Shown piece by piece: positions 3,323-49,579 of a DNA stretch of 64,000 bases. The DNA comes from an uncultured Alphaproteobacteria bacterium. Its GTDB lineage: Bacteria > Pseudomonadota > Alphaproteobacteria > CAAHEQ01 > UBA3637. The DNA lies in the NCBI GenBank assembly GCA_944392125.1, contig CALXVP010000001.1:4325-68324 (forward strand), given 5' to 3'. The notes below the pieces were generated by a model. The model was not told the origin of the DNA. It saw only the letters and a program-made list of their open reading frames with translations, and searched no databases. Position numbers and translations under genes: made by a program. Numbering within the stretch: position 1 is the stretch's first letter; each line of letters begins with the position of its first letter.

Positions 3323-4378
3323 ATGTTTAGCAAAACTCACAAAACTGAAGTGATTATATCGCAAGTTAATCCAACCCCAGTAGATGGAACGGACGCTAAC
3401 GGATTAACGGCTTTAATGCACGCAATCAGATCAAAAGACATAAAATCAGTCAAGCACTTGATTTTAAGGGAACATGCCAAAATAGATGTTGCCGATAAAA
3501 ACGGGCAGACACCATTGATTCATGCCGTAAAATCGGGGACAAATAGTATCGTGGAATATTTGCTTTACATGGGTGCCGATGCAACGAGACGTGACAAATT
3601 CGGGCGGACGGCATTGATGTATGCGGCATGGAAAGGATACCCTGAACTGATGGGGATTCTTTTGAGAAAGGATTCGTCAGACAGATATATAACCGATAAC
3701 AATGGGGCAAATGCCATTATGTATGCTGCTCTATCCGGTAATTTAGAATGCGTAGACAGACTGAACAGACAAGATGATGATTTGTTTGTTGAGGATAATA
3801 AGGGACGAAATTTACTGTGGTATGCGTGCAATTCGGGAAATCCGTCTCTTGTGAAAGATTTGGTTGATTCGGGCGTTGATATAGATCATCGGGCTGAAAA
3901 TGGAGAAACGCCGTTGATGCATGCCATTCGCGAAAGGAAAGTGATTGTATCGGACCGTTTGATTCAACTCGGCGCAGATGTAGATGCACAAGATAATAAC
4001 GGATTAACACCGCTAATGATCGGCATTGAGAATACGTTTATTTGCGAAAATTTGTTACGAGCAAATGCCGATCTTGATAAAAAGGATAATAACGGATGGA
4101 CGGCCGCCATGCATGCTGTTAATCTGCGTGAATTAAAAGGACTTGAAATCTTAATCAACGGTGGTGCAAATTTGCGTTTGACAAATAATGAGGATAAAAC
4201 TGTTTTTGAGATGATTGTCGATAAGAAGTTTAATGAAGCGGCTTGGACATTAAGGCATGCACTCAGAGAAGGAAAAGTATCTTATGACAGATTTTGCCGT
4301 ATTGAACCGATTATTAAAGTGCGGGTAGATATTTTTCGGCGCTTGAATGGTTATTATAATCAGCATACAAAATCATAA
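3323..4378 (+). CDS. Ankyrin-repeat protein (about 8 ANK repeats)
   Basis: Repeated G-(x)-TPLM(H/Y)A...G...(V/I)..LL..GAD(V/I)(N/D) units. Strong RBS AAAAGGAGAAG 5 nt upstream of the ATG. Confidence 0.85.
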   Translation: MFSKTHKTEVIISQVNPTPVDGTDANGLTALMHAIRSKDIKSVKHLILREHAKIDVADKNGQTPLIHAVKSGTNSIVEYLLYMGADATRRDKFGRTALMYAAWKGYPELMGILLRKDSSDRYITDNNGANAIMYAALSGNLECVDRLNRQDDDLFVEDNKGRNLLWYACNSGNPSLVKDLVDSGVDIDHRAENGETPLMHAIRERKVIVSDRLIQLGADVDAQDNNGLTPLMIGIENTFICENLLRANADLDKKDNNGWTAAMHAVNLRELKGLEILINGGANLRLTNNEDKTVFEMIVDKKFNEAAWTLRHALREGKVSYDRFCRIEPIIKVRVDIFRRLNGYYNQHTKS

Positions 4379-6941: not shown

Positions 6942-7868
6942 TTAAACGCGACTCAATCCGCCATTTTTGCGAATCAATTCGCGCAAGGCTTTTTGGGCGG
7001 TAATTCGTTTTTGTGCTTGCTTTTTCAAATACATTAAACGCCGTTCCTCAAAAGGAATGGACTGACGCGCTTGAATTTCTTTCTTTCGTTCTTGGTGCAA
7101 GAAACGACGAATTACTTGATTATGCGCCGCTTGTTCGGGCGTTTGGCCGTTGTTGTTCCGAATAGTTAAATCGGGCGCGATGGCGCTCGGTGTGTTGAAG
7201 AAGAGTTTTGCATTATCAACATTGTGTTGATAATCTAATAAGTGCAAAGCTGTTTCCCCGTTCGCATTTTGTTTGTTCGGATCAAAATGATGCGTCAGCA
7301 ACGTGCGAATAACTTTGGGGCCGGCATGCAAAACGGCAATATGCAAAAGGGAATTATTATCAATGTAATCATTATCTGCTTGAACTGTTTTTAGCTGTTC
7401 TTTTTTTAAATGCTCAAAATAAAGTTGCAATAATTCCGGTTTATTATAACGAACGGCACGATAGAGGGGTGAAAAATGATTCGAGGCTTTTAATGTTGGG
7501 TCGGCACCCGCCTCTAAGAGCACTTTTGTGCCTTTTAGCGATGAAATGCCGGCGCAATAATCCAATAGGCTCGAGCCATCTTGCAATAATTCATTTGCAC
7601 AATGCCAACGTTTCAAAATTTCATAAGCCGTATCGTATGATTTCTTTGTAATCATATCACAAACAAACATGACGGCTTTTTGCTTATTTTCGCTCGTTTT
7701 ATTTTCAATATCAGATAAATGCAACTCAACCGAACCGCCGATTTCATCATTGGCCGATACCGTTACTGTTTCTTCACTTATCTCTTGATTCAAGCCAGTT
7801 AATGTAAGTGTATCTGCCGTATTACCCGTATTTTCTTCATTAAAAGTCATTTGAATATTCTTATCCAT
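6942..7868 (-). CDS. Ankyrin-repeat protein
   Basis: 308 aa with ANK units (LLEAGADPTLK, NNSLLHIAVLHAGPKVIRTLL, NGETALHLL). RBS GAAAGGGTG. Confidence 0.8.
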   Translation of the reverse strand: MDKNIQMTFNEENTGNTADTLTLTGLNQEISEETVTVSANDEIGGSVELHLSDIENKTSENKQKAVMFVCDMITKKSYDTAYEILKRWHCANELLQDGSSLLDYCAGISSLKGTKVLLEAGADPTLKASNHFSPLYRAVRYNKPELLQLYFEHLKKEQLKTVQADNDYIDNNSLLHIAVLHAGPKVIRTLLTHHFDPNKQNANGETALHLLDYQHNVDNAKLFFNTPSAIAPDLTIRNNNGQTPEQAAHNQVIRRFLHQERKKEIQARQSIPFEERRLMYLKKQAQKRITAQKALRELIRKNGGLSRV

Positions 7869-24432: not shown

Positions 24433-25629
24433 ATGAGTTATCCGAAAAGTAATGTTGTTCATTTTATACCGCTTCGTATCGGTATGGTTAGTCCGCATGA
24501 TTTAATCCAGCTGAAAACATTGTATGATTTTAAAGGGGATGAAGAAACCTCCCTTTTATTGAATGTTGAAAAGGGGATGAAAGAAAAAGATTTCGTGCAA
24601 CAAATTTTTGCTCGTCAAAAAATTTGGAATGCCGAAAATAAAAGCGTTTATTTAATGCAAGATGATGAAGGAATTGTGAGGGGTGTTGCTTCTGTTATTC
24701 CCGTGCGGAAAGATGCGTATGCAGGTATAGCGGAATATGCGTTTGAAGCACTTTTGTGCGAGCCAGGTGAGGCAAAGCGTATGTGCTCCATGTTTGAGCA
24801 ACATCAGAGACTTCGCCTAATTCCCGAATTTTCAGATGCTTTATCCGAACAAGTTCGCTTTTTTGTGCCGTCTGCCGGTGAAAAATTGACTTCCGCTGTC
24901 AATTTATCGGAAAAGCAGTATGAAAATCTCAGAAATTCATATATGGAAACCCTCTTAAAAACAATGCCGACGGATATTTATTTAAGGCAATCGTATTTCG
25001 GCGTAAAAAAATTAACCCCGACTGTGGCGAACGCAACGCAGTTTTCGGAGTTTGTAGAAAGAAATAATCAATCCGCAAATGCGTTTTGGAAAGAACTTGC
25101 CGATGCATGCGCAAACCCGCAGGAAACCGCTTCGTTTTTGAAAGCAAAATCTCAAAAGGAGAATAAAAATCCCTCCGTTTTTTATGGGCTTTTTAAAGAT
25201 GAATCATTTATCGGCGTTTTTGAATGTTCCCCGCGGGATACAACGATTCATCTTAATATGATGGTAGATAAAGCGGTAACGGGGAAAGGCTATGCTTCAG
25301 AGGCTCTGCGTTTACTGGAACGAGAATTATTTAAACGGGGTGCGGAAGAAATTCGCATAGAGTGCTCCGGACATAATCGTGAGACGCCGATTATTGCAAG
25401 AAACAATGTGTATCGGCGTGCTGCGGCAGATCAACCGCATTTTTCCGATCAATTCTATCATCTGGATGCCGAAAGCCCCGAAGCAAAGACGTATTTTAAA
25501 ACCTTATCGGATTATGCCGACGGAAAATTCGGCAAAGAAAGTTTTTTGAAACAGGAAGGAATTAAAAAATCCGAATTATCTTCTTGTGCGAGACAGATGT
25601 TGGAAGAAAAAAGTAAATCACGTTCTTAA
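24433..25629 (+). CDS. Two-domain GNAT-like N-acetyltransferase family protein (paralog 1)
   Basis: 398 aa. The C-terminal half contains the GNAT motif A (VDKAVTGKGYASEALRLLERELF). The N-terminal half is paralogous to the N-terminus of the next gene. Confidence 0.55.
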   Translation: MSYPKSNVVHFIPLRIGMVSPHDLIQLKTLYDFKGDEETSLLLNVEKGMKEKDFVQQIFARQKIWNAENKSVYLMQDDEGIVRGVASVIPVRKDAYAGIAEYAFEALLCEPGEAKRMCSMFEQHQRLRLIPEFSDALSEQVRFFVPSAGEKLTSAVNLSEKQYENLRNSYMETLLKTMPTDIYLRQSYFGVKKLTPTVANATQFSEFVERNNQSANAFWKELADACANPQETASFLKAKSQKENKNPSVFYGLFKDESFIGVFECSPRDTTIHLNMMVDKAVTGKGYASEALRLLERELFKRGAEEIRIECSGHNRETPIIARNNVYRRAAADQPHFSDQFYHLDAESPEAKTYFKTLSDYADGKFGKESFLKQEGIKKSELSSCARQMLEEKSKSRS

Positions 25630-25794
25630 CTGATTCATCAACGCAATATATCATGCTGTTCGTAATACCGAAAGCGGGGCATGATTGGTTGCGTTTATGT
25701 GCATTGAGTTAGGCGCATTTGACAGATAATTAATGGGGCGATGATTAAATAAGCCGAAAGAAAAATGATACCGTTTTTGGCGGATAACGATTAA

Positions 25795-26949
25795 ATGGAT
25801 GGAAAAATGTTACACTTTGTTGAACTAAAAGAGTCTTTAATTACAATGGATGATGTTCTGGAATTGAAGAGCAGATGCGATTCCCCGAAACATGAAGATT
25901 TGTTGCTTTTGCTAAATGTGGCGCAAAATACGGATATTTTGCATTTTGTGCAACAATTATTTCATCAAATTAACGTCGGCAAAAAAGAGATGAAAACATT
26001 GTATCTTGCAAAAAACGGCGATAAAGATGTGCTGGGTGTCATTTCAATTCAACCGGTTTACTGCAATCCAGCCACCATGGAAATTGAGTATTGCTGGGAT
26101 TCGTATTTGACGGGAGATGATTCTTTAAAAGCCGTTAAAGAAGCATTTATCAAAGCCTACCGTGAGCAACCGCATGAGAGTGTTTATCAAGAAGTCAGAA
26201 ATAAAAAAGCCCGTTTTTTCGCCCCGCAACTGGCCGAAAAAGGTGTATTGCTACAAGAGCAAACAAAACCCGACATGTATCAAAAATTATCCCATTCAAA
26301 ACAATACATGATGCGATTAACCATGCCACAACAAATCGGATTGAACGGTTCTTCCTTTTCAATGCGCAGAATAAAAGGTAAAAAAGCGGAAGTTGAAGAT
26401 GTTTTTACGTTAATTCAAAGAAATCAGCCGGAAACGGAAAGATTTTTGCCTGCGTGGCAAGAGGAGTGTTCGTCGCTTTTAAAAACAGAGAATTTTCTTA
26501 AAAATCAAATGAATTTTAAAGAAAATATGTTGTCCGTCAGATACGGTATGTATGAAGCGGACAAACTCATCGGATTGCTTGAGTGTTGCGCAAGGGGAGA
26601 TGTGGCGCATCTCAATATACTGGTAGATAAGGATTCTGGCGCGAGAGGCTATGCATCGGAAGCGTTGCGCTTGGCAGAACGCGAAATTTTTAAACACGGT
26701 ATCAATGAAATTCAATTAGAATGCTCTGCTTACAATTATTTGTCTCCGCGCGTGGTTATTGCCAACGGATATAAACGAGCCGAATTGTATGATGAATATG
26801 ATTCAACGTATTATTATCATAAAGCAATCGGTGATTATCTGGCCGGCAATCGTGCTACCCATACATTATTAAAACCGAAAGAAAAAATCAAAGTTGTTCA
26901 AAGATATGTGCGGTGTCCGCTTATTGATAATGAATCTTATTCCAGATAA
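25795..26949 (+). CDS. Two-domain GNAT-like N-acetyltransferase family protein (paralog 2, tandem duplicate)
   Basis: 384 aa with VDKDSGARGYASEALRLAEREIF and a shared N-terminal LLLLNV...FVQQ(I/L)F...V(R/L)GV(A/I)S(V/I)(I/Q)PV pattern. The true start may be the Met of MLHFVEL at 25807. Confidence 0.5.
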   Translation: MDGKMLHFVELKESLITMDDVLELKSRCDSPKHEDLLLLLNVAQNTDILHFVQQLFHQINVGKKEMKTLYLAKNGDKDVLGVISIQPVYCNPATMEIEYCWDSYLTGDDSLKAVKEAFIKAYREQPHESVYQEVRNKKARFFAPQLAEKGVLLQEQTKPDMYQKLSHSKQYMMRLTMPQQIGLNGSSFSMRRIKGKKAEVEDVFTLIQRNQPETERFLPAWQEECSSLLKTENFLKNQMNFKENMLSVRYGMYEADKLIGLLECCARGDVAHLNILVDKDSGARGYASEALRLAEREIFKHGINEIQLECSAYNYLSPRVVIANGYKRAELYDEYDSTYYYHKAIGDYLAGNRATHTLLKPKEKIKVVQRYVRCPLIDNESYSR

Positions 26950-27119: not shown

Positions 27120-28937
27120 ATGAAAAAGCTTTTATGGTTGGTTTCTGTCTCATGTTTGGCAATCGGCACGGCTTTGCCGTCCATGGCACAAGTAACGAGT
27201 AATGCGGCGGCATTGCGCGAAGCCGCAAGAGTCGGTCGCCCGACGGCACGAGCAATACAATCAGCGCAACCATCCGCAGTGGTTCAAACCACTCAGCAAA
27301 AAGCTAGCTCATCTCAGTCGACGATTATTCCGGCGGCCTCATTGGGAGCCAGTGCCGTCCAGCAAGCATCGCGTCCGGCACCTGTTTTACAGCCGACCAT
27401 TCAAGAATATAACACAGAGACAGTGCCCGATATTTCATCAAATGAGCCGACAGGATTAAAACCGGTTGTGCAAGCCGTTCCGGCAGCCGAGAAAAAAATG
27501 CAATTACCAACGTATACAAAAGATGAAATTTTCTTTAATAACGGTGTGTTTTTTGTAAAAGCCGATAAAAAGCCGTTGACGGGTATTGTGCAAGAAAAAA
27601 GCAAGGAAGGAAAGTTGTTGGCGCGCACGCATTTCTTCAACGGGTTGCCACACGGCGAAAGTCGCACTTACTATACAAACGGGCAAATTCAAACCGTTGA
27701 AATTTATTACCAAGGTGTTTTGGTTGATACGGCGCGCTCTTACTATGATAACGGACAGTTGCAAAATGAAACAACTTTTCAAATGGGGCATCCGCATGGT
27801 GTTTCTAAGGTTTATTACCCTTCCGGAAAAATACACTTTGAAACAAATTATAATATGGGAATGAAAGACGGAGAGGATAAAATATATGCTGAAAACGGTC
27901 AAATGCTTATGATACGGCATTTTACGAAAGATCAGTTGAACGGAGAAGTGAAAGAATACTATCCGAGTGGGAAATTAAAAGGTGAAGGTCTTTTCCGCCC
28001 GAACGGACCGGAAGGAACGGTTAAAACATATTATGAAAACGGGCAGTTGCAAACGGAAGAAGAGTATAAAAACGGGCTGAAAAACGGATTTTCAAAAACG
28101 TATTATGATTTCGGTCAGTTGCAACAAGAAGAAAAATATGTTGCCGATTTAATTGACGGTGTCAGTAAATCATATTATCCCGACGGCAGTCTTGAAAAAG
28201 AATTGAATTATAAAAACGGAAAGCAAGAAGGGTCTGCCAAAGTTTATTATCAAAACGGGCAATTAAAAATGGCGTTGACATATAAGAACGATTTGCCGGA
28301 AGGTGAAATGAATACATATTACCCGGATGGTAATTGGCAATCGCACGCCGTTATGAAAAACGGCAGACCGGAAGGAAAAGTGCAAGAATATTATGAAAAC
28401 GGGCAACTCTCGCTTGAAAAAAATTTCAAGGATGGTTTGGAAGAAGGCCCTTCCATCGCCTATTATGAAAACGGGCAAGTAAAAACAACCGTTTTGTATA
28501 AGGCAGGGAAACAGAACGGGGAATTTGCAACATTTTATGAAAACGGCAAGTTAAATTCGCGCACCAATTTACTGGATGATAAACCGCACGGTGAATTTAA
28601 AGAATATTATCCGAGCGGAGCCATTCATATTGATGCCGCCTATATCAACGGCGAAATGCACGGGTTGCAAAAAATTTATTATCCGAACGGCAAATTGCAA
28701 AGTGAAGATGAATATAAGAATAATAAATTAGACGGTATCAGCAGAACATATTTTGAAAATGGCGTTATGCGTTCCGAAGCGCATTTTAAAGACGGAAAGA
28801 AAAACGGTGTGGCCAAAGTTTATGATGAAAACGGTAATCTCGTTTTGGAAATGAATTTTGAAATGGATGATTTAAAAAGCACGCAGACCTTTAAAAAACA
28901 TTCTGATGAAAGCGATGCCAAAGATTCAAAAGAATGA
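27120..28937 (+). CDS. Secreted MORN-repeat (YwqK-like 'MORN variant') protein
   Basis: 605 aa. N-terminal signal peptide, a low-complexity Ala/Ser/Gln linker, then at least 18 repeats of (K/R)xYYENGQL(Q/K)xExxYKNGxxxG. RBS AGGAGAAAAAG. Confidence 0.75.
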   Translation: MKKLLWLVSVSCLAIGTALPSMAQVTSNAAALREAARVGRPTARAIQSAQPSAVVQTTQQKASSSQSTIIPAASLGASAVQQASRPAPVLQPTIQEYNTETVPDISSNEPTGLKPVVQAVPAAEKKMQLPTYTKDEIFFNNGVFFVKADKKPLTGIVQEKSKEGKLLARTHFFNGLPHGESRTYYTNGQIQTVEIYYQGVLVDTARSYYDNGQLQNETTFQMGHPHGVSKVYYPSGKIHFETNYNMGMKDGEDKIYAENGQMLMIRHFTKDQLNGEVKEYYPSGKLKGEGLFRPNGPEGTVKTYYENGQLQTEEEYKNGLKNGFSKTYYDFGQLQQEEKYVADLIDGVSKSYYPDGSLEKELNYKNGKQEGSAKVYYQNGQLKMALTYKNDLPEGEMNTYYPDGNWQSHAVMKNGRPEGKVQEYYENGQLSLEKNFKDGLEEGPSIAYYENGQVKTTVLYKAGKQNGEFATFYENGKLNSRTNLLDDKPHGEFKEYYPSGAIHIDAAYINGEMHGLQKIYYPNGKLQSEDEYKNNKLDGISRTYFENGVMRSEAHFKDGKKNGVAKVYDENGNLVLEMNFEMDDLKSTQTFKKHSDESDAKDSKE

Positions 28938-29030: not shown

Positions 29031-30752
29031 TCAATATGATTTTGATAAATCTTTTAGTAACACTTTATTGATAAATTTCTGCTTGTATGCCACGTGTGAT
29101 GCCGTATTTTCTTGTATTTTGTATGAAGTTATATCGAGGGATTGGATATTAAATTGATCATCTAATCCATACCCCAAATTTTTTAATACCGTATACGGGC
29201 TTTTATGTTCATTCATGGCAATCATCGCATTGATGATATTCTGTGCCACTTGATTTGCCGGAGCGGAAAGGTGTTGGAGAGTTGAAACAGGCGGAAAATA
29301 GGGATTATATTCTTGAATCCTGTTGTAGGCTACAAACACATTTTGAAATTTTTGCTCTTGAAAGCTTTTTTGCGCAAATTTGATGCTTTTAGCTGAAATA
29401 CCCGTATATTCATAAGATAAATCCATACATAAATGTTTATCATCTTCATGAGTGGTTTGTGTAATATATTTATCCGTTCTGACGGCTTTTAAAAAATCAC
29501 TTGTAAAGACCGCTGTCGGTGAAGCGGAAAGCCTAAGCTTTGTTTTTCGCGCCCATTGCCTATTTATATCATTAAAATCAATAAGCACGGTTGTAGAAGA
29601 TGGCGTGTTATCTGATAAAATCTGCGGAATGGAAGGTAAATAATATAAATTTTTCCAGTAATCCACCACCTCCATAAAGTTGTTAAACAAAGTCGGATTA
29701 AGATAGATATGTTTACTAATCAGTGAATCATAAGCATTTTGCCGAGATTTGGATAGTAAAAAATCGCAGAGTGTTTGAATGCAACGCTCTTCGGCTTGAG
29801 CCTGAATATATCGTTGAACGGTAGCAATCTTTTCTGATAGTGAGATATGACCGTTCATGGGAACCGAGTCATTCTCTTTGACTAACATTTTGAAAACATT
29901 GCGTTGATATTGCCGTATTAAAGACTGAATCGCTTTTGATTTGTGATTAAATGTTAAAAGATAGTAGGATTCTGCTTCGGCTTCCGTTACCATATTCATA
30001 GCAACCGATTCAACATTTTTTTTGTTTTTATCACCCCATAAATGATAGTGATATTGCAATACATGCCTCAGTTCATGCAGAAATGTGAACATGCGGGATG
30101 GAGAATTTTTTGAAATAAGCGGAAAAACCTTAATTATCAGTTGTCCGTTATTTTCTAAAACACCGCCGGCAGCCTCTTGATCATATAAACTTTGTTCAGC
30201 GAAAGGCGACATATCAATCGTTAATTTTTGAGAATGTTCCTCTTTGCTAATCTCATCATAAACACTTAAAAATTCATGAAAAATACGATTGATAATCGGT
30301 TGTGACGGTAAGTTTTCTTTTAAATATTGAACGAGTTCTTCAGCGTTTTTCTCGGCTTTATGTTTCTTGCGCTGCGTCTGCGGAGCATCTGGTGCCTCAT
30401 AAGCATATTTGACATGAATATGATTTTGAATCCGTTGCCATTCTTCTGCCGTTATATCATTATATTGTTCATACCACTCTGTCAATGATGTGACGGGCAT
30501 AGTTTCATGCAAAGTATCTTGAAATTGCTTACAAGCTTGTTGCAGATTCTTAAAATCATCGGCGGAAATAAGCAATTTCTCGGCTACTTCATTCTTGATT
30601 TGAAATTTTGCTTGAATGCCTAATTGTTCTAAAAACCATTTTATTTGATTCTTTTCTTGCTCGCTTTGATTATAAAGAGAAAAATAAACTGTTTGATTTT
30701 TAACCAAAAAGTGTTTGTTTGTGCCAAAATAATGAATTATATCGTCTATCAT
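29031..30752 (-). CDS. Large hypothetical protein with an HExxH motif (FLHELRHVLQYHYHLWG...E). Possibly a zinc-metallopeptidase-like protein.
   Basis: 573-aa ORF with no other recognisable domain. The HExxH assignment rests on a single motif. Confidence 0.35.
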   Translation of the reverse strand: MIDDIIHYFGTNKHFLVKNQTVYFSLYNQSEQEKNQIKWFLEQLGIQAKFQIKNEVAEKLLISADDFKNLQQACKQFQDTLHETMPVTSLTEWYEQYNDITAEEWQRIQNHIHVKYAYEAPDAPQTQRKKHKAEKNAEELVQYLKENLPSQPIINRIFHEFLSVYDEISKEEHSQKLTIDMSPFAEQSLYDQEAAGGVLENNGQLIIKVFPLISKNSPSRMFTFLHELRHVLQYHYHLWGDKNKKNVESVAMNMVTEAEAESYYLLTFNHKSKAIQSLIRQYQRNVFKMLVKENDSVPMNGHISLSEKIATVQRYIQAQAEERCIQTLCDFLLSKSRQNAYDSLISKHIYLNPTLFNNFMEVVDYWKNLYYLPSIPQILSDNTPSSTTVLIDFNDINRQWARKTKLRLSASPTAVFTSDFLKAVRTDKYITQTTHEDDKHLCMDLSYEYTGISAKSIKFAQKSFQEQKFQNVFVAYNRIQEYNPYFPPVSTLQHLSAPANQVAQNIINAMIAMNEHKSPYTVLKNLGYGLDDQFNIQSLDITSYKIQENTASHVAYKQKFINKVLLKDLSKSY

Positions 30753-37373: not shown

Positions 37374-37883
37374 TCAGCAAATCATACCGGAAGGCGGTAA
37401 CATTATATCCGATTTTTTATCGGCGTTCGTGGAAGAAACCTCTACCGTTGCATGCAGTTTCTTAAAGAAAGCAATTGTATCGGCATCATTATTTAAATGA
37501 GCGATTGAATCGGCCGTTTCTCCGTAATAATTCTTCATTGAAATTTGAACGTTCGGTTGTTTTAACAGATAGGAAATCATTTCCGTTTTGTTTGCGTTGA
37601 CGGCACACATCAAGGGTGTATTACCGTAGGAATCCCGCGCATTGATATCGCACCCCTCATCAAGCAAAAACGTCATAATCTCAACCGAGCCGTGTTCGGC
37701 AGCATAAACCGTTACGGGTTTTGCAACTTTGCGCCCGTTATCTTCATCCGCCTCAACAAAACTCAACCGTTTCAAGTCCATCAGAGCAGAAACATCTCGC
37801 AACGCGATTAAATCATCGTTATCAATCGCCTGTTGAATTTGTCGGGCCAACATCAAATAAGCATTTTCAATGTCTTGCATGGT
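37374..37883 (-). CDS. Ankyrin-repeat protein (small, about 3 repeats)
   Basis: Start set at MQDIENAYL, preceded by AGGAGGAGGA. Contains LLDEGCDINARDSYGNTPLMCAVNANKTEMISYLL. Confidence 0.7.
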   Translation of the reverse strand, partial: TMQDIENAYLMLARQIQQAIDNDDLIALRDVSALMDLKRLSFVEADEDNGRKVAKPVTVYAAEHGSVEIMTFLLDEGCDINARDSYGNTPLMCAVNANKTEMISYLLKQPNVQISMKNYYGETADSIAHLNNDADTIAFFKKLHATVEVSSTNADKKSDIMLPPSGMIC

Positions 37884-38015
37884 CCTCCTCCTTTGATAGA
37901 TTGTTCTATTATTATATGCTATTTTATGTTTATTGTCAATCAAAATACGGAAAATTGCCGATAACATATTATTTTAATTCAAAAAAAATTTTCTAATTTG
38001 TTTTCAAAAAAATGA

Positions 38016-38757: not shown

Positions 38758-39281
38758 ATATTGTGTCAAGGTGAAACAAAGCAGTGCGTATGGATTGGCG
38801 GAAGGAGGGTGTGCCATTTGTGAATAATGGTAAATTCATCGCCGAGATTGACCGGTTCGCAGTTATGCAAAGCATCTGTTGCCTGTTTAAGATTTAATAG
38901 GCGAATTATAATTGCTATGTGATATTCAATATGGCATCATCGTATTTTGTGAATTTTAGGATTAAAATTACAGAGAGTGAAATAGAGAAGTTGTGCTGTG
39001 CCACAGTAATATATCGTTCCATTAGAATAGCAAAACAGTTGTATCAATGTGGGCGCAATATCAAGATAGTTAAAGATTGTATAAAAGAGAAGAAGTTGAT
39101 GCAAATATAAAAATTTGCAATGGATTCTTTTGCGCAATTCAACAAGACATCGTTTCCGATAAAGTAGAAAAACAATCGTTTTCGGCGTCTGCTTTTAGCT
39201 TCGTATCTGCTGAATATGATTTAATTGTTTTCGGCGACATTTTTTTATTTCTTTTTTATTTTTATGTGGTATAATGAACGC

Positions 39282-46798: not shown

Positions 46799-49294
46799 TT
46801 ATGATTTGATATTATAATTTAATTTACAATATCCGTTTTCATATATCCGTGTATTCAGGCATTTTTGGCACTCTTCTTCGGTGGATTTTACGTGGATTGA
46901 GATATTGCAAGGATAGCAATTATTGTCAGCTCCCAAAAGTTGATTCTGTGTAGAACATTTAAGTCGAACACAATATCCATTCTGCTCTGCCCGATTAGGA
47001 CAAGTTTCTTCACAAGGTTTGCTTAAAAGAGCCATTGGAACGGGGAGTGAGTAGTCACAAGAATCACAACCAGAGGTATTTATTCTTAACGGCGTTTCAG
47101 CGCTACATTTTTGAACACAAACATAATTATATAAAAAATCTCTTGTCGGACAGAGAGTTTTACATAAATACGGAGTATACACTCCGGATTGATTAATTAT
47201 ATCGGCATCATCGCAACTTTTGCATATACCATATGAATCATGAAACAAAGGTTTGTCTTCGACAGGTGTTCCCTTTACACCACACAACGTACAGTAATTT
47301 ATTCCATTATAACCTCCTCCTAAGTAACGTTTAGGACATACTGAGCAATTTTCCGTAAATTTACCCACATCAACACCGTTGATTTCATCGCAACTGTAAC
47401 AGTTTCCATATCTGTCTTTTAACGGTTTTCCTTCAGTTGGTGTTCCTTTTATATCACAATCTAATATGCAATAATTTGTATTAGAATCCTCTTGTATGAT
47501 ACGTTCATTACAAACATCACAAAGTTCTGGATATCTTCCAACGTTGACAGCTTTTATTTCACTACAAGCATAACAACTTCCGTTAGCTCCTTGAAGTGGC
47601 TTATTTTCTGTGGATGTTCCGGGAATGCCACAGATAGAACAACACGTTCTGTCTGTATAACCTGTTGATGAAAACTGATTCGAACAAACCGAAAGATACG
47701 TTGAAATTGTATCCGCATTAAGCTCATCACACGTATGGCAGTTTCCTTCTTTATCAACAAGGGGTTTGTTTTCATAAGCAGAATTTTTAAGTCCGCAGGG
47801 AAGTGTGCAATAATTAACACCTGAAACGGTTTCTATATGCCGTTCTGGGCATACATCGCAGTATTCCGGATAATTGCCGACATTTATTCCCGTAATCTCC
47901 GAACAACTGTAACATGCACCATTTTTATCTTTAAGGGGTTTATCGTTCGGACAAGTTTTAAGTATACAATATCCGTTTTTTTCTTCTCGGTTAGGACAGA
48001 TATTTTCACAAGGTTCAGTTAATAGTCCTATGGCAACAGCCGAAGGGTAATTACAAGAATCGCAACTCGAAGTATTTATTCTTAACGGCGCTTCAGCACT
48101 ACATTTTGGAGTACAAACATAATTATACAAAAAATCTCTTTCCGGACAGAAAGTTTTACATAAATATGGACTATATATCCCTGTTTGATTAACTACTCCC
48201 GTATCATCACACCCTTTACATACCCCATAGGAATCATGAAATAATGGCTTATCTTCTACAGGCGTTCCTTCTACACCGCATAAAGAGCAATAATTCCGTC
48301 CGTTATAACCGCCACCCAGATAACGTTTAGGGCAAGTGGCACAATTACCCGCATATTCCCCAACATCAACACCGTTCATTTCATCGCAACTGTGGCAATT
48401 ACCGTCTTTATCCTGCAATGGTTTCTCTGTTGGGCAACATCTGCCTTCGCGATTGCAACATTGCCCGTCTGCCGTTACGGAGGCACAACAAAAATCGCCG
48501 ACAATATAATCCTCATCACAACATACCATCCAACGCGAATCATCATAGTCTTTTTTGCATGTTTGTGAATCTAAACAATATGACTCGCAAAGTCCGGTAT
48601 CTGTATTGCATGTTCCGCAAATACAATGGCTATCCTGCTTACACCGCATGATTTCATGCCGATTATCTTCGTCAATTTCATCTTTTGATGACATGTCTTT
48701 ATAAAATTCATACGCGAGTTCTACTGTTTCCGCTTGCTCGCAAATACCAATGCTTGCCTCAAATTCTTCTACACCGACGAAGATAGAGTAGGGCACTCGC
48801 CACGGCATTCGTAACAGTTCTTTGCATACATCCGTCGGAACATTACTGACAAATATCTCAAAATAATCTATATATTGCGGACTTATTCTCGCTCTAATCG
48901 GATACCCCATGCGTGTGATGGGCCCCATTTTCATTTCTATATCACCACTATAATTATTTTCAATCATAGCTTCCATATCAAAAGAAATATCGCGTGCGCG
49001 CAGATTGATTTCGTTAATGGTTTCATTGGCAATATATTTTGTCATCGCATACCGATAACCCAAAATAGCCGTTACGGATAATACCCCAATTATCGCCAAC
49101 ACGCCGAGCATTTCCACCATACTCCGCCCGTACTCAGCCGACTGCGCAGACAAATTCTCGGTGGTTGACATAGATAAATTTCCTATCTTTTGCGCGGTAT
49201 TTTTTCCGCAAAAATAGCGATTCGCGTAAAATACCTCGTTTTTAAGACTTTTCATTGATTGAGATAACTTGATAACTAACTGTTTTATATTCAT
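46799..49294 (-). CDS. Giant cysteine-rich protein with a type-IV-prepilin-like N-terminal domain (paralog B)
   Basis: The N-terminal region reads ...SAQSAEYG|RSMVEMLGVLAIIGVLSVTAILGYRYAMTKY, and about 150 aa of the N-terminus is homologous to paralog A. The C-terminal ~600 aa are built of CxxC...CxxC modules with an internal near-identical ~130-aa duplication. The start was moved to the ATG at 49294 (MNIKQLV), preceded by GGGGAGAAA. Confidence 0.6.
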   Translation of the reverse strand: MNIKQLVIKLSQSMKSLKNEVFYANRYFCGKNTAQKIGNLSMSTTENLSAQSAEYGRSMVEMLGVLAIIGVLSVTAILGYRYAMTKYIANETINEINLRARDISFDMEAMIENNYSGDIEMKMGPITRMGYPIRARISPQYIDYFEIFVSNVPTDVCKELLRMPWRVPYSIFVGVEEFEASIGICEQAETVELAYEFYKDMSSKDEIDEDNRHEIMRCKQDSHCICGTCNTDTGLCESYCLDSQTCKKDYDDSRWMVCCDEDYIVGDFCCASVTADGQCCNREGRCCPTEKPLQDKDGNCHSCDEMNGVDVGEYAGNCATCPKRYLGGGYNGRNYCSLCGVEGTPVEDKPLFHDSYGVCKGCDDTGVVNQTGIYSPYLCKTFCPERDFLYNYVCTPKCSAEAPLRINTSSCDSCNYPSAVAIGLLTEPCENICPNREEKNGYCILKTCPNDKPLKDKNGACYSCSEITGINVGNYPEYCDVCPERHIETVSGVNYCTLPCGLKNSAYENKPLVDKEGNCHTCDELNADTISTYLSVCSNQFSSTGYTDRTCCSICGIPGTSTENKPLQGANGSCYACSEIKAVNVGRYPELCDVCNERIIQEDSNTNYCILDCDIKGTPTEGKPLKDRYGNCYSCDEINGVDVGKFTENCSVCPKRYLGGGYNGINYCTLCGVKGTPVEDKPLFHDSYGICKSCDDADIINQSGVYTPYLCKTLCPTRDFLYNYVCVQKCSAETPLRINTSGCDSCDYSLPVPMALLSKPCEETCPNRAEQNGYCVRLKCSTQNQLLGADNNCYPCNISIHVKSTEEECQKCLNTRIYENGYCKLNYNIKS

Positions 49295-49495
49295 TTTATT
49301 TCTCCCCATTCTACATAAACGTCCGTTTATGTAGAGGGGATATAGCGCAACATCGCTCTGCAAAAAGAAATTTTAAAAAATTCTTATTTTACAATGAGAT
49401 ATTTATATTTAAATTTTTGCTTGATTATTTTAAAAATACCTTTATAATCTGATTTATGCTATATCATCTAGACGGACGTTTATGTAGAGTCCGTT
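49295..49495 (-). promoter_or_regulatory. Conserved ~200-bp regulatory region upstream of paralog B. It contains the 12-bp-arm perfect inverted repeat TCTACATAAACG-TC-CGTTTATGTAGA (49310..49335) and a second motif CATCTAGACGGACGTTTATGTAGAG (49465..49489).
   Basis: About 90% identical to 12870..13070, with the same motif order and spacing. Confidence 0.55.
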
Positions 49496-49545
49496 TTTTT
49501 GTATTTATAAAAAACAGCGTATGGATTGGTAAGAAAGAAATAAAT

Positions 49546-49579
49546 AAAAAACCGCAAGCGATTTGCTCACGGTTTTTTT
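49546..49579. terminator. Bidirectional rho-independent terminator (A6-CCGCAAGCG-ATTTG-CTCACGG-T7) at the 3' end of the 2-hydroxyacid dehydrogenase gene. It insulates the paralog-B regulatory region.
   Basis: 8-bp stem (two G·U pairs on the minus-strand RNA) flanked by A-runs and T-runs. Confidence 0.5.

What the first reader, a model, noticed from the sequence alone, without database searches (positions are those of the whole stretch)
46799..49294. Second paralog of the prepilin-like cysteine-rich giant protein, 34 kb away, with a divergent Cys-module region
Paralog B shares the cleavage-site context (SAEYG|RSMVEMLGVLAIIGVLSVTAILGYRYAM) and ~150 aa of N-terminal domain with paralog A. It carries a different arrangement of Cys modules (CxxCDE(M/I)NGVDVG..., C(P/S)xCPKRYLGGGYNG...). 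A conserved anchor domain plus a variable Cys-rich 'payload' is what one expects of a diversifying surface-exposed family, for example for antigenic or host-receptor variation. Two copies in 64 kb suggests the genome may hold more.
Basis: seen in the sequence. Interest (0 to 1): 0.75.

Follow-up and report, generated by a model that had tools for sequence, protein, structure and literature searches.

The report
Variable cysteine-rich pilin-like surface protein family
This gene is one of many copies of an undescribed family in uncultured gut Alphaproteobacteria, in which a type IV pilin-like "carrier" end is fused to a long disulfide-rich repeat tail that is swapped between copies, much as in variable surface-adhesin repertoires.

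Summary
Window 46799-49294 (-) encodes an 831-aa protein. It has a leader, an invariant G|RSMVEMLGVLAIIGVLS motif, a head about 150 aa long, and about eleven 6-Cys modules. Paralog A (10056-12869, -) shares the N-terminal region; overall identity is 26%.

AlphaFold models the N-terminus as a pilin "lollipop" (pLDDT 83). Its best PDB matches are type IVb pilins, but the scores are weak. The Cys super-repeat folds very confidently (pLDDT 95) and has no Pfam or PDB relative.

The family is large: 5,084 50%-identity clusters at E<=1e-10. All named relatives come from gut or rumen Alphaproteobacteria MAGs, with several copies per genome. A third copy lies 2.6 kb outside the window.

Tails are mosaic. 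B and the third copy share a 5' block of 1.2 kb at 97% identity, followed by unrelated tails. A's core cannot be aligned with its syntenic ortholog, although the flanks have dS of about 0.2. dN/dS is below 1 throughout, so the variation comes from segment replacement, not point selection.

Best reading: modular type IV pilins that display variable adhesin or coat rods. No pilus machinery or prepilin peptidase was found in the sequence I could reach, so processing and assembly are inferred, not shown.

The parts
46799..49294 (-). Paralog B coding sequence (831 aa from MNIKQ; an alternative in-frame ATG is at 49309)
   Evidence: ORF list and sequence. A near-identical 831-aa protein, P0001, was called on a 369-kb scaffold.
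49127..49294 (-). Unusually long hydrophilic, basic leader (56 aa) ending in E-Y-G
   Evidence: Most family members have leaders of 6-15 aa. Leaders of 56-83 aa are seen in this genus, and the frame stays open in all of them.
49064..49126 (-). Class III signal-like hydrophobic tract: RSMVEMLGVLAIIGVLSVTAI (Glu at +5)
   Evidence: Invariant GRS..E in 223 members. Sub-threshold Pfam N_methyl match. PDB profile hits are pilins aligned in register.
48665..49126 (-). Pilin-like module: long alpha-1 helix (48959-49141) and a beta-sheet head (48701-48901) with two family-invariant Cys (codons at 48824-48826 and 48740-48742)
   Evidence: AlphaFold pLDDT 83, pTM 0.73. Foldseek top hits are CofA, TcpA and PilS. 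Invariant C110/C138 in alignment A2.
48434..48643 (-). Cys-dense linker ('knot') between the head and the repeat array (RCKQDSHCICGTCN...CCNREGRCC)
   Evidence: Conserved within the closer half of the family.
46802..48436 (-). Array of about eleven 6-Cys modules of ~50-58 aa each (consensus CP..KPL....G.C..C...C..CPNR....C)
   Evidence: Cys spacing. Alignment A3 invariant columns. AlphaFold pLDDT 95. No Pfam or PDB relative.
47942..48445 (-). Super-repeat copy 1 (three modules, residues 289-456 counted from the 49309 ATG); this is the segment that was modelled
46934..47461 (-). Super-repeat copy 2 (internal duplication, 996 nt from copy 1; the 300-nt core is 77% identical)
48380..49567 (-). 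5' block (upstream region plus about 310 codons) that is 96.9% identical to paralog C just outside the window; the tails differ beyond it
49310..49450 (-). Conserved 140-nt upstream element shared by all family members of this genus, including the promoter-like hexamers TTTAAA-16-TAAAAT (49413-49386)
   Evidence: 89% identical between A and B, and 86-96% identical to the sister-genome copies. Promoter scan.
49303..49340 (-). Stable 5'-UTR hairpin that pairs CCCCUC... with the GGGGAG Shine-Dalgarno sequence
   Evidence: dG -21.7 kcal/mol, z -5.6. The palindrome is present at every copy in this genus.
46746..46777 (-). Intrinsic terminator of gene B. With the upstream gene's terminator at 49546-49578, it makes B monocistronic.
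10056..12869 (-). Paralog A coding sequence (937 aa from MKIKQ; an alternative ATG is at 12884)
12885..13025 (-). Paralog A's copy of the conserved upstream element and hairpin (hairpin about 12874-12920)
10706..11618 (-). Hypervariable core of A: blastn cannot align it with the syntenic ortholog, whose flanks are 90-93% identical

Best explanation
B is a modular type IV pilin-like protein. A pilin module acts as carrier and is fused to a rod of disulfide-bonded 6-Cys repeat modules.

Proposed mechanism, step by step:
1. The protein inserts into the inner membrane through its class III signal-like N-terminus. This step is inferred.
2. A prepilin-type peptidase cuts after the invariant Gly. This step is inferred.
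3. The alpha-1 helix, with its invariant Glu5, docks the protein into a type IV filament. That filament would be built from the short pilin-only members of the same family, with the large members at the tip. This step is inferred.
4. The Cys-rich tail is displayed outside the cell as a protease-resistant adhesin or coat element. This step is inferred.

What is shown:
- The genome carries several complete, separately transcribed copies.
- The copies in this genus share a promoter/5'-UTR element and the same 5' coding block.
- The tail arrays are replaced, duplicated and exchanged between loci.

The result is a repertoire of alternative tails on one conserved carrier. Its likely use is variable binding to host or partner-cell surfaces, or escape from immunity or proteases, in the gut.
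For: **Motif**
- G(-1), R+1, S+2 and E+5 are invariant in 223 members. Leaders are 15 aa or shorter in 111 of them.

**Fold of the N-terminal module**
- AlphaFold gives pLDDT 83, with a helix at residues 5-65 followed by a beta-sheet.
- All top Foldseek hits are type IVb pilins: CofA (E=0.014, prob 1.0, TM 0.48), then TcpA and PilS.
- Every top hit of the profile against PDB sequences is a pilin aligned in register; the best E-value is 0.024.
- Sub-threshold Pfam matches: N_methyl in 17 of 38 members, PilS_N in 3.

**Pilin-only members exist**
- Complete family members of 149-218 aa are present.

**The tail is extracytoplasmic and oxidised**
- 192 of 223 mature proteins have an even number of Cys (p=1.5e-29).
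- The same Cys module also sits behind Sec and lipoprotein signal peptides in other proteins.
- Some relatives carry teneurin-type EGF modules in the tail instead.

**The tail is a real, ordered domain**
- pLDDT 95, pTM 0.82.

**Repertoire and mosaicism**
- At least 3 copies lie in about 70 kb of this genome. Other MAGs hold up to 8 among the best 80 loci.
- The family has 5,084 clusters at E<=1e-10.
- B and C share 1189 nt at 96.9% identity, followed by unrelated tails.
- At the locus next to pheT, the sister genome carries a B-like tail where this genome carries a different one.
- A's core has saturated dS, against a genomic baseline dS of 0.19-0.33.

**Independent transcription units with a shared regulatory element**
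-.
Against: - No prepilin peptidase, assembly ATPase, platform protein or secretin was seen. I checked the 64-kb window, 83 kb of the scaffold, and about 0.6 Mb of family neighbourhoods in about 33 relatives. I could not search the whole genomes.
- Family genes are never clustered with machinery genes.
- Pfam N_methyl is below its threshold (10.3-12.6 bits against a cut-off of 21.2), and NCBIfam finds nothing.
- The fold-search E-values are only about 0.01.
- Arg at +1 is unusual for a prepilin peptidase substrate (my own knowledge).
- The 56-83 aa leaders in this genus are longer than any prepilin leader I know of (my own knowledge).
- An array of about 11 modules must pass the outer membrane; nothing here shows how.
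- No window has dN/dS above 1.
- No expression or localisation data exist.
Confidence: 0.6

Rival explanations
1. Uncleaved signal-anchor. The pilin-like N-terminus is only a membrane anchor, a vestige of a pilin. It tethers the Cys-rich ectodomain to the inner membrane facing the periplasm, and no filament is involved.
For: - No type IV filament machinery was found in any sequence I could read.
- The genes are dispersed among housekeeping genes.
- Pfam N_methyl is below threshold.
- The leaders in this genus are long, and +1 is Arg.
- A paper on reduced-genome gut lineages reports type IV pili for a different lineage and not for the Alphaproteobacterial order Rs-D84 (PMC12306168). I could not establish whether this window belongs to that order.
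Against: - A simple anchor would not need an invariant Gly(-1) and Glu(+5), nor a conserved beta-sheet head with two invariant Cys, across proteins about 30% identical elsewhere.
- Pilin-only members with no payload would have no purpose.
- The same Cys module already uses ordinary Sec and lipoprotein signals where plain export is enough.
- An array of about 11 modules (three modules make up 168 aa) would probably be too long for a periplasm. This is inference; I did not measure the model.
Confidence: 0.2
2. Minor pseudopilin or secreted substrate of a type II secretion-like system. The protein primes a short periplasmic pseudopilus or is released from the cell, rather than being displayed on a long pilus.
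For: - It has the same class III-type N-terminus and pilin fold.
- Large minor pilins at filament tips are known in both T2SS (GspK) and T4b pili (CofB), as discussed in PMC8179133.
Against: - Several to many paralogs per genome with hypervariable tails fit a displayed ligand-binding repertoire better than a structural secretion part.
- No gsp genes were seen.
- The best structural matches are T4b major pilins, not GspG-K.
Confidence: 0.1
3. Metal-binding zinc-ribbon-like repeats. The regularly spaced CxxC pairs chelate Zn or Fe rather than forming disulfides.
For: - CxxC pairs recur every ~13-20 residues.
- There are weak sub-threshold Pfam matches to zf-HC3 and Zn_ribbon_19 (E 0.005-0.1).
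- Giardia VSPs, which are also CXXC-rich, are reported to bind metals (my own knowledge).
Against: - The module always follows an export signal: pilin-like, Sec or lipoprotein.
- 86% of mature proteins have an even Cys count.
- No significant match to any zinc-finger family or structure.
- Extracellular metal binding on top of disulfides is not excluded.
Confidence: 0.07
4. Assembly or binning artefact: the two copies are a collapsed or duplicated repeat, or contamination.
For: The third copy is interrupted by a 100-N scaffold gap, so repeats do trouble the assembler here.
Against: - A and B are only 26% identical overall.
- Both lie on one 369-kb scaffold among housekeeping genes.
- A has a syntenic ortholog in an independent assembly, with flanks 90-93% identical.
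- Hundreds of related loci exist in other MAGs.
Confidence: 0.01

Closest known systems
Modular type IV pilins (Streptococcus sanguinis PilB with a vWA module and PilC with a lectin module; Raynaud et al. 2021, PMC8179133)
   Same: - An N-terminal class III signal plus a small pilin module serves as carrier.
- A bulky functional module is grafted on the C-terminal side and is expected to sit at the filament tip and mediate adhesion.
- The paper notes that such pilins are widespread and that many payloads lack database signatures.
   Different: - The payload here is a long array of a previously unannotated 6-Cys repeat.
- The N-terminus fails the N_methyl/IPR012902-type signature that the paper used to define the set.
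- There are many hypervariable paralogs per genome rather than one or two.
- The host is presumably a diderm (BamE is encoded nearby).
- The machinery is not identified.
Type IVb pilins and their large minor pilins (ETEC CofA/CofB, Vibrio cholerae TcpA/TcpB)
   Same: - The best structural matches of the N-terminal module are CofA, TcpA and PilS.
- The +1 residue is not Phe, and the leader is longer than in type IVa pilins (my own knowledge).
- CofB and TcpB are multi-domain minor pilins located at the tip (PMC8179133 for CofB; my own knowledge for TcpB).
   Different: - The matches are weak (E about 0.01, TM <=0.48).
- T4b genes sit in one operon with their machinery; these genes are dispersed and monocistronic.
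- The tail fold is unrelated.
R64 PilV shufflon and Neisseria pilE/pilS antigenic variation (my own knowledge, not tested here)
   Same: A constant pilin N-terminal part is combined with alternative C-terminal segments, which gives variable binding specificity or antigenicity. Conserved 5' sequence serves as the homology block.
   Different: - No invertible segments, recombinase or promoter-less silent cassettes were found.
- All copies are complete genes with their own promoter, hairpin and terminator.
- The exchange seen here is between species and between loci on an evolutionary timescale. It is not shown to be programmed.
Giardia variant-specific surface proteins (VSPs) and other protist CXXC-rich coat proteins
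   Same: - Multigene families of gut organisms.
- About 10% Cys with many CXXC motifs.
- Variable ectodomains on a conserved anchor.
- A protease-resistant coat is reported for VSPs (PMC6341118 abstract).
   Different: - No detectable homology: neither A nor B hits Pfam VSP at E<=1.
- The anchor is an N-terminal pilin module, not the C-terminal transmembrane helix and conserved cytoplasmic tail of VSPs (VSP anchor from my own knowledge).
- This is a bacterium. The resemblance is an analogy only.
Lineage-specific expansions of pilin-like proteins in Planctomycetes (prepilin N-terminus + DUF1559) (my own knowledge, not tested)
   Same: Many paralogs per genome share a prepilin-type N-terminus, have unknown function, and are dispersed away from the machinery genes.
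   Different: Different N-terminal signature, different C-terminal domain, no Cys-rich repeats, different phylum.

Membership tests
Type IV pilin / type IV filament subunit | Hydrophilic leader ending in Gly (or Ala) | tested here: met
   Gly is invariant in 223 members. The leader is 15 aa or shorter in 111 of them and 56 aa in B.
Type IV pilin / type IV filament subunit | About 21 mostly hydrophobic residues after the cleavage site, with Glu at +5 | tested here: met
   RSMVEMLGVLAIIGVLSVTAI. E+5 is invariant. Arg at +1 is atypical.
Type IV pilin / type IV filament subunit | Alpha-1 helix of about 50 residues protruding from a beta-sheet head | tested here: met
   AlphaFold helix at residues 5-65 plus 4-5 strands; pLDDT 83. 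Top Foldseek hits are pilins, but with E about 0.01-0.03. This rests on a prediction, not a solved structure.
Type IV pilin / type IV filament subunit | Curated sequence signature (Pfam N_methyl PF07963 or the NCBIfam prepilin N-terminal domain) | tested here: not met
   10.3-12.6 bits against a cut-off of 21.2. Sub-threshold in 17 of 38 members. No NCBIfam hit.
Type IV pilin / type IV filament subunit | Cognate prepilin peptidase and assembly machinery (ATPase, platform, secretin) in the same genome | not testable with these tools
   None seen in the window, in 83 kb of the scaffold, or in about 0.6 Mb of related loci.
Type IV pilin / type IV filament subunit | Cleavage after Gly, N-methylation, and incorporation into a filament | not testable with these tools
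   Needs proteomics or microscopy.
Modular type IV pilin (sensu Raynaud et al. 2021) | A pilin module followed by one or more extra modules not specific to pilus biology | tested here: met
   Pilin-like module, then the Cys-repeat array. The same module occurs on non-pilin export signals. Relatives carry EGF modules instead. Membership depends on the pilin rows above.
Flp/Tad (type IVc) pilin | G|XXXXEY motif, a very small mature protein (~40-60 aa), and a match to Pfam Flp_Fap | tested here: not met
   +6 is Met or Ile, not Tyr. The mature protein is 775 aa. No Flp_Fap or TadE hit at E<=1.
Giardia VSP family | A match to Pfam VSP, and a C-terminal transmembrane helix with a conserved tail | tested here: not met
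   No Pfam hit at E<=1. The protein ends in ...GYCKLNYNIKS with no hydrophobic C-terminus.
Furin-like / EGF / TNFR cysteine-rich repeats | Significant sequence or structural match to these folds | tested here: not met

The most novel reading that the evidence does not exclude
These gut Alphaproteobacteria may run a bacterial counterpart of protist VSP-type coat variation. Each genome would hold a repertoire of complete genes that share one promoter, one SD-sequestering hairpin and one 5' coding block. Each gene would encode a pilin-carried, disulfide-rich rod of a fold with no solved relative. Tails would be reshuffled between loci through the conserved 5' and 3' blocks. Expression might be restricted to one or a few copies at a time through the shared hairpin. 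The purpose would be to vary attachment to host or protist cells, or to evade immunity and proteases.

An even stranger variant is also not excluded: the genomes lack any type IV filament machinery, and the invariant GRSMVEML signal feeds a processing or export route that is still unknown.
Probability: 0.2. Interest if true: 0.85.

Novelty: new variant of a known kind. Interest (0 to 1): 0.66.

Why it matters
- **A large unannotated family.** More than 5,000 clusters at 50% identity have no Pfam or NCBIfam model and no name. They are confined, among named sources, to uncultured host-associated Alphaproteobacteria from human, ruminant and rabbit guts. Ankyrin, MORN and T4SS genes nearby suggest that these organisms interact with eukaryotic cells.
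- **A likely main surface interface.** Each genome carries several 0.5-3 kb copies with fast-changing tails. That makes the family a strong candidate for the organisms' principal surface interface.
- **It extends the modular-pilin idea.** The concept would now cover a multigene, recombining repertoire.
- **A probable new fold.** The disulfide-rich repeat is confidently predicted but structurally unmatched. It is likely protease-stable.
- **Practical value.** The invariant GRSMVEMLG motif is a handy marker for finding these organisms and their surface repertoires in metagenomes.

Tried and rejected
**Searches that found nothing significant**
1. Pfam and NCBIfam on full-length A and B.
3. Rfam on the window: only tRNA-Val. 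The shared 5' element is not a known RNA family.
4. Promoter-less silent cassettes of the pilS type: tblastn of A and B against the window and its flanks found none.

**The hunt for pilus machinery**
5. I looked for pilus or T2SS genes next to family members. Clustering the ORFs of 80 loci found no conserved neighbour.
6. Motif scans for GspE/PilB/VirB11 Walker A boxes and for the A24 peptidase GGGD box over about 0.6 Mb found nothing.
7. Pfam annotation covered the whole window and +/-10 kb beyond it.
8. The contexts of short pilin-only members were housekeeping genes or tiny contigs.

**Taxonomy**
9. I tried to place the MAGs in a GTDB order through the supplement of the ruminant MAG paper. 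The genome names were not found. Whether the window belongs to Rs-D84 or RF32 remains open.

**Hypotheses considered and set aside**
10. Positive selection. Sliding-window Nei-Gojobori dN/dS stayed below 1 everywhere (0.03-0.55), and dS was saturated in the variable parts.
11. The long leader as untranslated sequence. A and B differ there only by in-frame indels, and the frame stays open in every copy from this genus. I kept it as probably translated, but this is unproven.
12. Resemblance of the leader (N-E-S-G) to Flp-type leaders of Alphaproteobacteria. This came from memory only. There was no Flp_Fap or TadE hit, so I did not pursue it.
Full report
**The observation**

The window holds an ORF at 46799..49363 on the minus strand. 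It sits 7 nt after a GGGGAG Shine-Dalgarno sequence, and a second in-frame ATG (MGRNK) lies at 49309. The quoted strings are all present: SAEYG|RSMVEMLGVLAIIGVLSVTAILGYRYAM, CHSCDEMNGVDVG..., and CPKRYLGGGYNG... twice.

Paralog A is at 10056..12884 (-). BLASTP of A against B gives E=2e-36 and 26% identity overall, with the clear homology in the first ~200 aa. B has 77 Cys (9.2%) and 19 CxxC motifs. It contains a large internal duplication spaced 996 nt apart at 77% nt identity.

The copies are far too divergent to be an assembly artefact. Both lie on one 369-kb metagenome scaffold among housekeeping genes.

**The N-terminal part**

Pfam and NCBIfam give nothing above threshold; N_methyl scores E=0.57. 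A protein search returned 243 relatives, all unnamed or labelled 'hypothetical protein [Alphaproteobacteria bacterium]'.

In 223 family members, Gly(-1), Arg+1, Ser+2 and Glu+5 are invariant. Glu at -3 is present in 184. The leader is 15 aa or shorter in 111 of them. This fits the published definition of a class III signal peptide: a hydrophilic leader ending in Gly, then 21 mostly hydrophobic residues with Glu5 (PMC8179133).

An alignment of 38 N-terminal regions shows two further invariant Cys in the head. AlphaFold on that alignment gives pLDDT 83 and pTM 0.73, with a helix at residues 5-65 followed by a beta-sheet, the pilin 'lollipop' shape.

The comparisons with known pilins all point the same way, and all are weak:
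- Foldseek against the PDB ranks only type IVb pilins at the top: CofA (E=0.014, prob 1.0, TM 0.48), then TcpA and PilS.
- The profile against PDB sequences gives only weak hits (best E=0.024), but every top hit is a pilin aligned in register.
- Pfam N_methyl is sub-threshold in 17 of 38 members, and PilS_N in 3.

I therefore treat the module as pilin-like in motif and predicted fold. It fails the curated sequence signature.

**The tail**

The tail is an array of about eleven modules of 50-58 aa. Each has six Cys, with the consensus CP..KPL....G.C..C...C..CPNR....C. A three-module super-repeat, modelled with 45 homologous segments, gives pLDDT 95 and pTM 0.82.

No known relative turned up:
- No Pfam family matches.
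- No PDB sequence matches.
- The best Foldseek hit has E=0.95. The non-significant hits are megalin, R-spondin furin repeats and the IGF1R Cys-rich region.

Three observations indicate that the tail is an exported, disulfide-bonded domain:
- 192 of 223 mature proteins have an even Cys count (p=1.5e-29).
- The same module occurs behind ordinary Sec and lipoprotein signal peptides in other small proteins of related MAGs.
- Some relatives carry teneurin-type EGF modules in its place.

**Size and distribution of the family**

A profile of the N-terminal region against 1.84 billion representative proteins finds 6,198 hits at E<=1e-3, 5,084 at E<=1e-10, and 438 at E<=1e-30. The listed hits are 158-1000 aa long. 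All sampled tails are Cys-rich, at 4-15.5%. Only 4 of 93 sampled representatives have any Pfam domain in the tail.

A scan of species-representative genomes found more than 599 motif matches, 582 of them confirmed by tblastn. The 80 loci that were returned and listed come from gut or rumen MAGs of humans, sheep, deer, buffalo and rabbit; all but one carry an Alphaproteobacteria label. Even within these best 80, single genomes contribute up to 8 loci.

Complete members range from 137 to 1064 aa. They include pilin-only proteins of about 150-220 aa, which could serve as major subunits.

No neighbouring gene is conserved. The family is dispersed.

**Copies in this genome and how they vary**

A third paralog, C, lies 2.6 kb beyond the left edge of the window, after pheT. 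It was not called as a gene because a 100-N scaffold gap interrupts its repeats.

- B against C: the first 1189 nt of C, counting about 260 nt upstream, are 96.9% identical to window 48380-49567. The tails are then unrelated, and the last 119 nt are 80.7% identical again.
- The pheT locus in the sister genome (CALXWZ01): the gene there (L003) shares its head with C, but its tail shares 80-95% blocks with B. Tails have therefore moved between loci.
- A against its syntenic ortholog L020: the flanks are 90-93% identical at the nucleotide level, and about 900 nt in the middle cannot be aligned by blastn.

Flanking housekeeping genes set the baseline at dS 0.19-0.33 and dN 0.003-0.03. Codons 1-120 and 781-942 of A sit near that baseline, with dS of 0.16-0.53. 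Codons 121-780 have dS from 0.8 to saturation and dN of 0.14-0.73.

dN/dS is 0.03-0.55 in every window with measurable dS. The excess divergence is therefore best explained by replacement with divergent segments, not by point-wise positive selection.

No promoter-less silent cassettes exist in or near the window.

**Regulation**

B is monocistronic. The upstream gene ends in a terminator at 49546-49578, and B's own terminator is at 46746-46777.

The 140 nt upstream of A and of B are 89% identical, far more conserved than the coding regions. The same element precedes every copy in the sister genome at 86-96% identity. It contains:
- promoter-like hexamers;
- a stable hairpin, with dG -21.7 kcal/mol and z -5.6 in B, and dG -19.1 in A. 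The hairpin pairs CCCCUC with the GGGGAG Shine-Dalgarno sequence.

It matches no Rfam family. Its function was not tested.

**Mechanism and its weak point**

The best-supported reading is a modular type IV pilin. A conserved pilin carrier would be cut after Gly, docked into a filament through alpha-1 and Glu5, and would display a variable, protease-resistant disulfide rod for adhesion or as a coat.

The shown parts are the motif, the predicted folds, the exported nature of the tail, the gene repertoire and the mosaicism.

The inferred parts are cleavage, filament assembly, surface display and binding.

The main weakness is that I found no prepilin peptidase, assembly ATPase, platform protein or secretin in the window, in 83 kb of the scaffold, or in about 0.6 Mb around relatives. 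I could not search whole genomes. Arg at +1 and the 56-83 aa leaders of this genus are also atypical.

The leading rival is an uncleaved membrane anchor. It explains the missing machinery. It does not explain the invariant Gly and Glu, the conserved head, or the pilin-only members.

**Comparison with known systems and verdict**

- The closest concept is the modular pilin of Raynaud et al. 2021 (PMC8179133).
- The closest structures are type IVb pilins.
- The logic of variation resembles R64 PilV and Neisseria PilE (my own knowledge), but without shufflon sites or silent cassettes.
- The tail chemistry and multigene layout resemble Giardia VSPs by analogy only. There is no Pfam VSP hit, and literature searches found no description of this bacterial family.

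I class the finding as a new variant of a known kind: an unannotated, very large, recombining family of pilin-carried Cys-repeat proteins in host-associated gut Alphaproteobacteria.

Noticed in passing
L086:13790-15731 (scaffold ERZ28614501 scaffold_5, about 2.6 kb beyond window position 1): A third family member (98.5% identical to P0003 over 525 aa) sits after pheT. No gene was called there because a 100-N scaffold gap interrupts its near-identical internal repeats. Repeat-rich family members are probably under-counted in MAG annotations.
   Followed up: yes
window 49303-49340 and 12874-12920 (-): A conserved 16-bp hairpin in the shared 5' element pairs with the Shine-Dalgarno sequence of every family copy in this genus (dG -21.7 and -19.1 kcal/mol). 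It might gate translation or stabilise the mRNA. It matches no Rfam family.
   Followed up: partly
window 49127-49294 and 12657-12869 (-): Leaders of 56-83 aa, basic and rich in Lys, Asn and Gln (MNIKQIVN..NRAKQ..LKNNQKA..), occur only in this genus. Other family members have leaders of 6-15 aa. The frame stays open in every copy examined. The purpose is unknown.
   Followed up: partly
window 39225-43202 (+): A VirD4-like type IV secretion coupling protein (T4SS-DNA_transf, TraG-D_C) lies directly after a 576-aa pentapeptide-repeat protein. No VirB genes are nearby.
   Followed up: no
window 3323-4378 (+), 6942-7868 (-), 37374-37967 (-), 27120-28937 (+): Three ankyrin-repeat proteins and a 605-aa MORN-repeat protein. 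These eukaryote-like repeat proteins are typical of bacteria that interact with eukaryotic cells.
   Followed up: no
P0250, P0257, P0258, P0261: The same 6-Cys module occurs in small proteins that have Sec or lipoprotein signal peptides instead of the pilin module. One of them is labelled 'Rickettsiales bacterium'. The module is therefore an independent exported domain.
   Followed up: partly
L083:10001-10477 and L083:19058-19549: Two complete pilin-only family members (158 and 163 aa) lie 9 kb apart in a 421-kb scaffold of a related organism, among tRNA synthetase genes. They are candidate major subunits.
   Followed up: partly
window 46550-46626 (+): tRNA-Val lies about 120 nt beyond B's terminator. 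I did not establish whether the B locus is an insertion next to the tRNA, because the sister-genome locus was not recovered.
   Followed up: no
window 45136-46445 (+) and 24433-26949 (+): Tandem paralog pairs: two HAD-family hydrolases whose ORFs overlap by about 50 nt, and two ~390-aa GNAT acetyltransferase-domain proteins.
   Followed up: no
window 29031-30752 (-): A 573-aa ORF with no Pfam match at E<=1e-5.
   Followed up: no
window 48590-48600 region (residue in CGTCN(T/I)DTGLC): The database protein P0001, encoded on scaffold_5, reads CNIDTG where the window reads CNTDTG. Paralog C also reads CNIDTG. The window therefore differs by at least one residue from that scaffold's B gene; this may be strain variation or a small conversion tract.
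   Followed up: no
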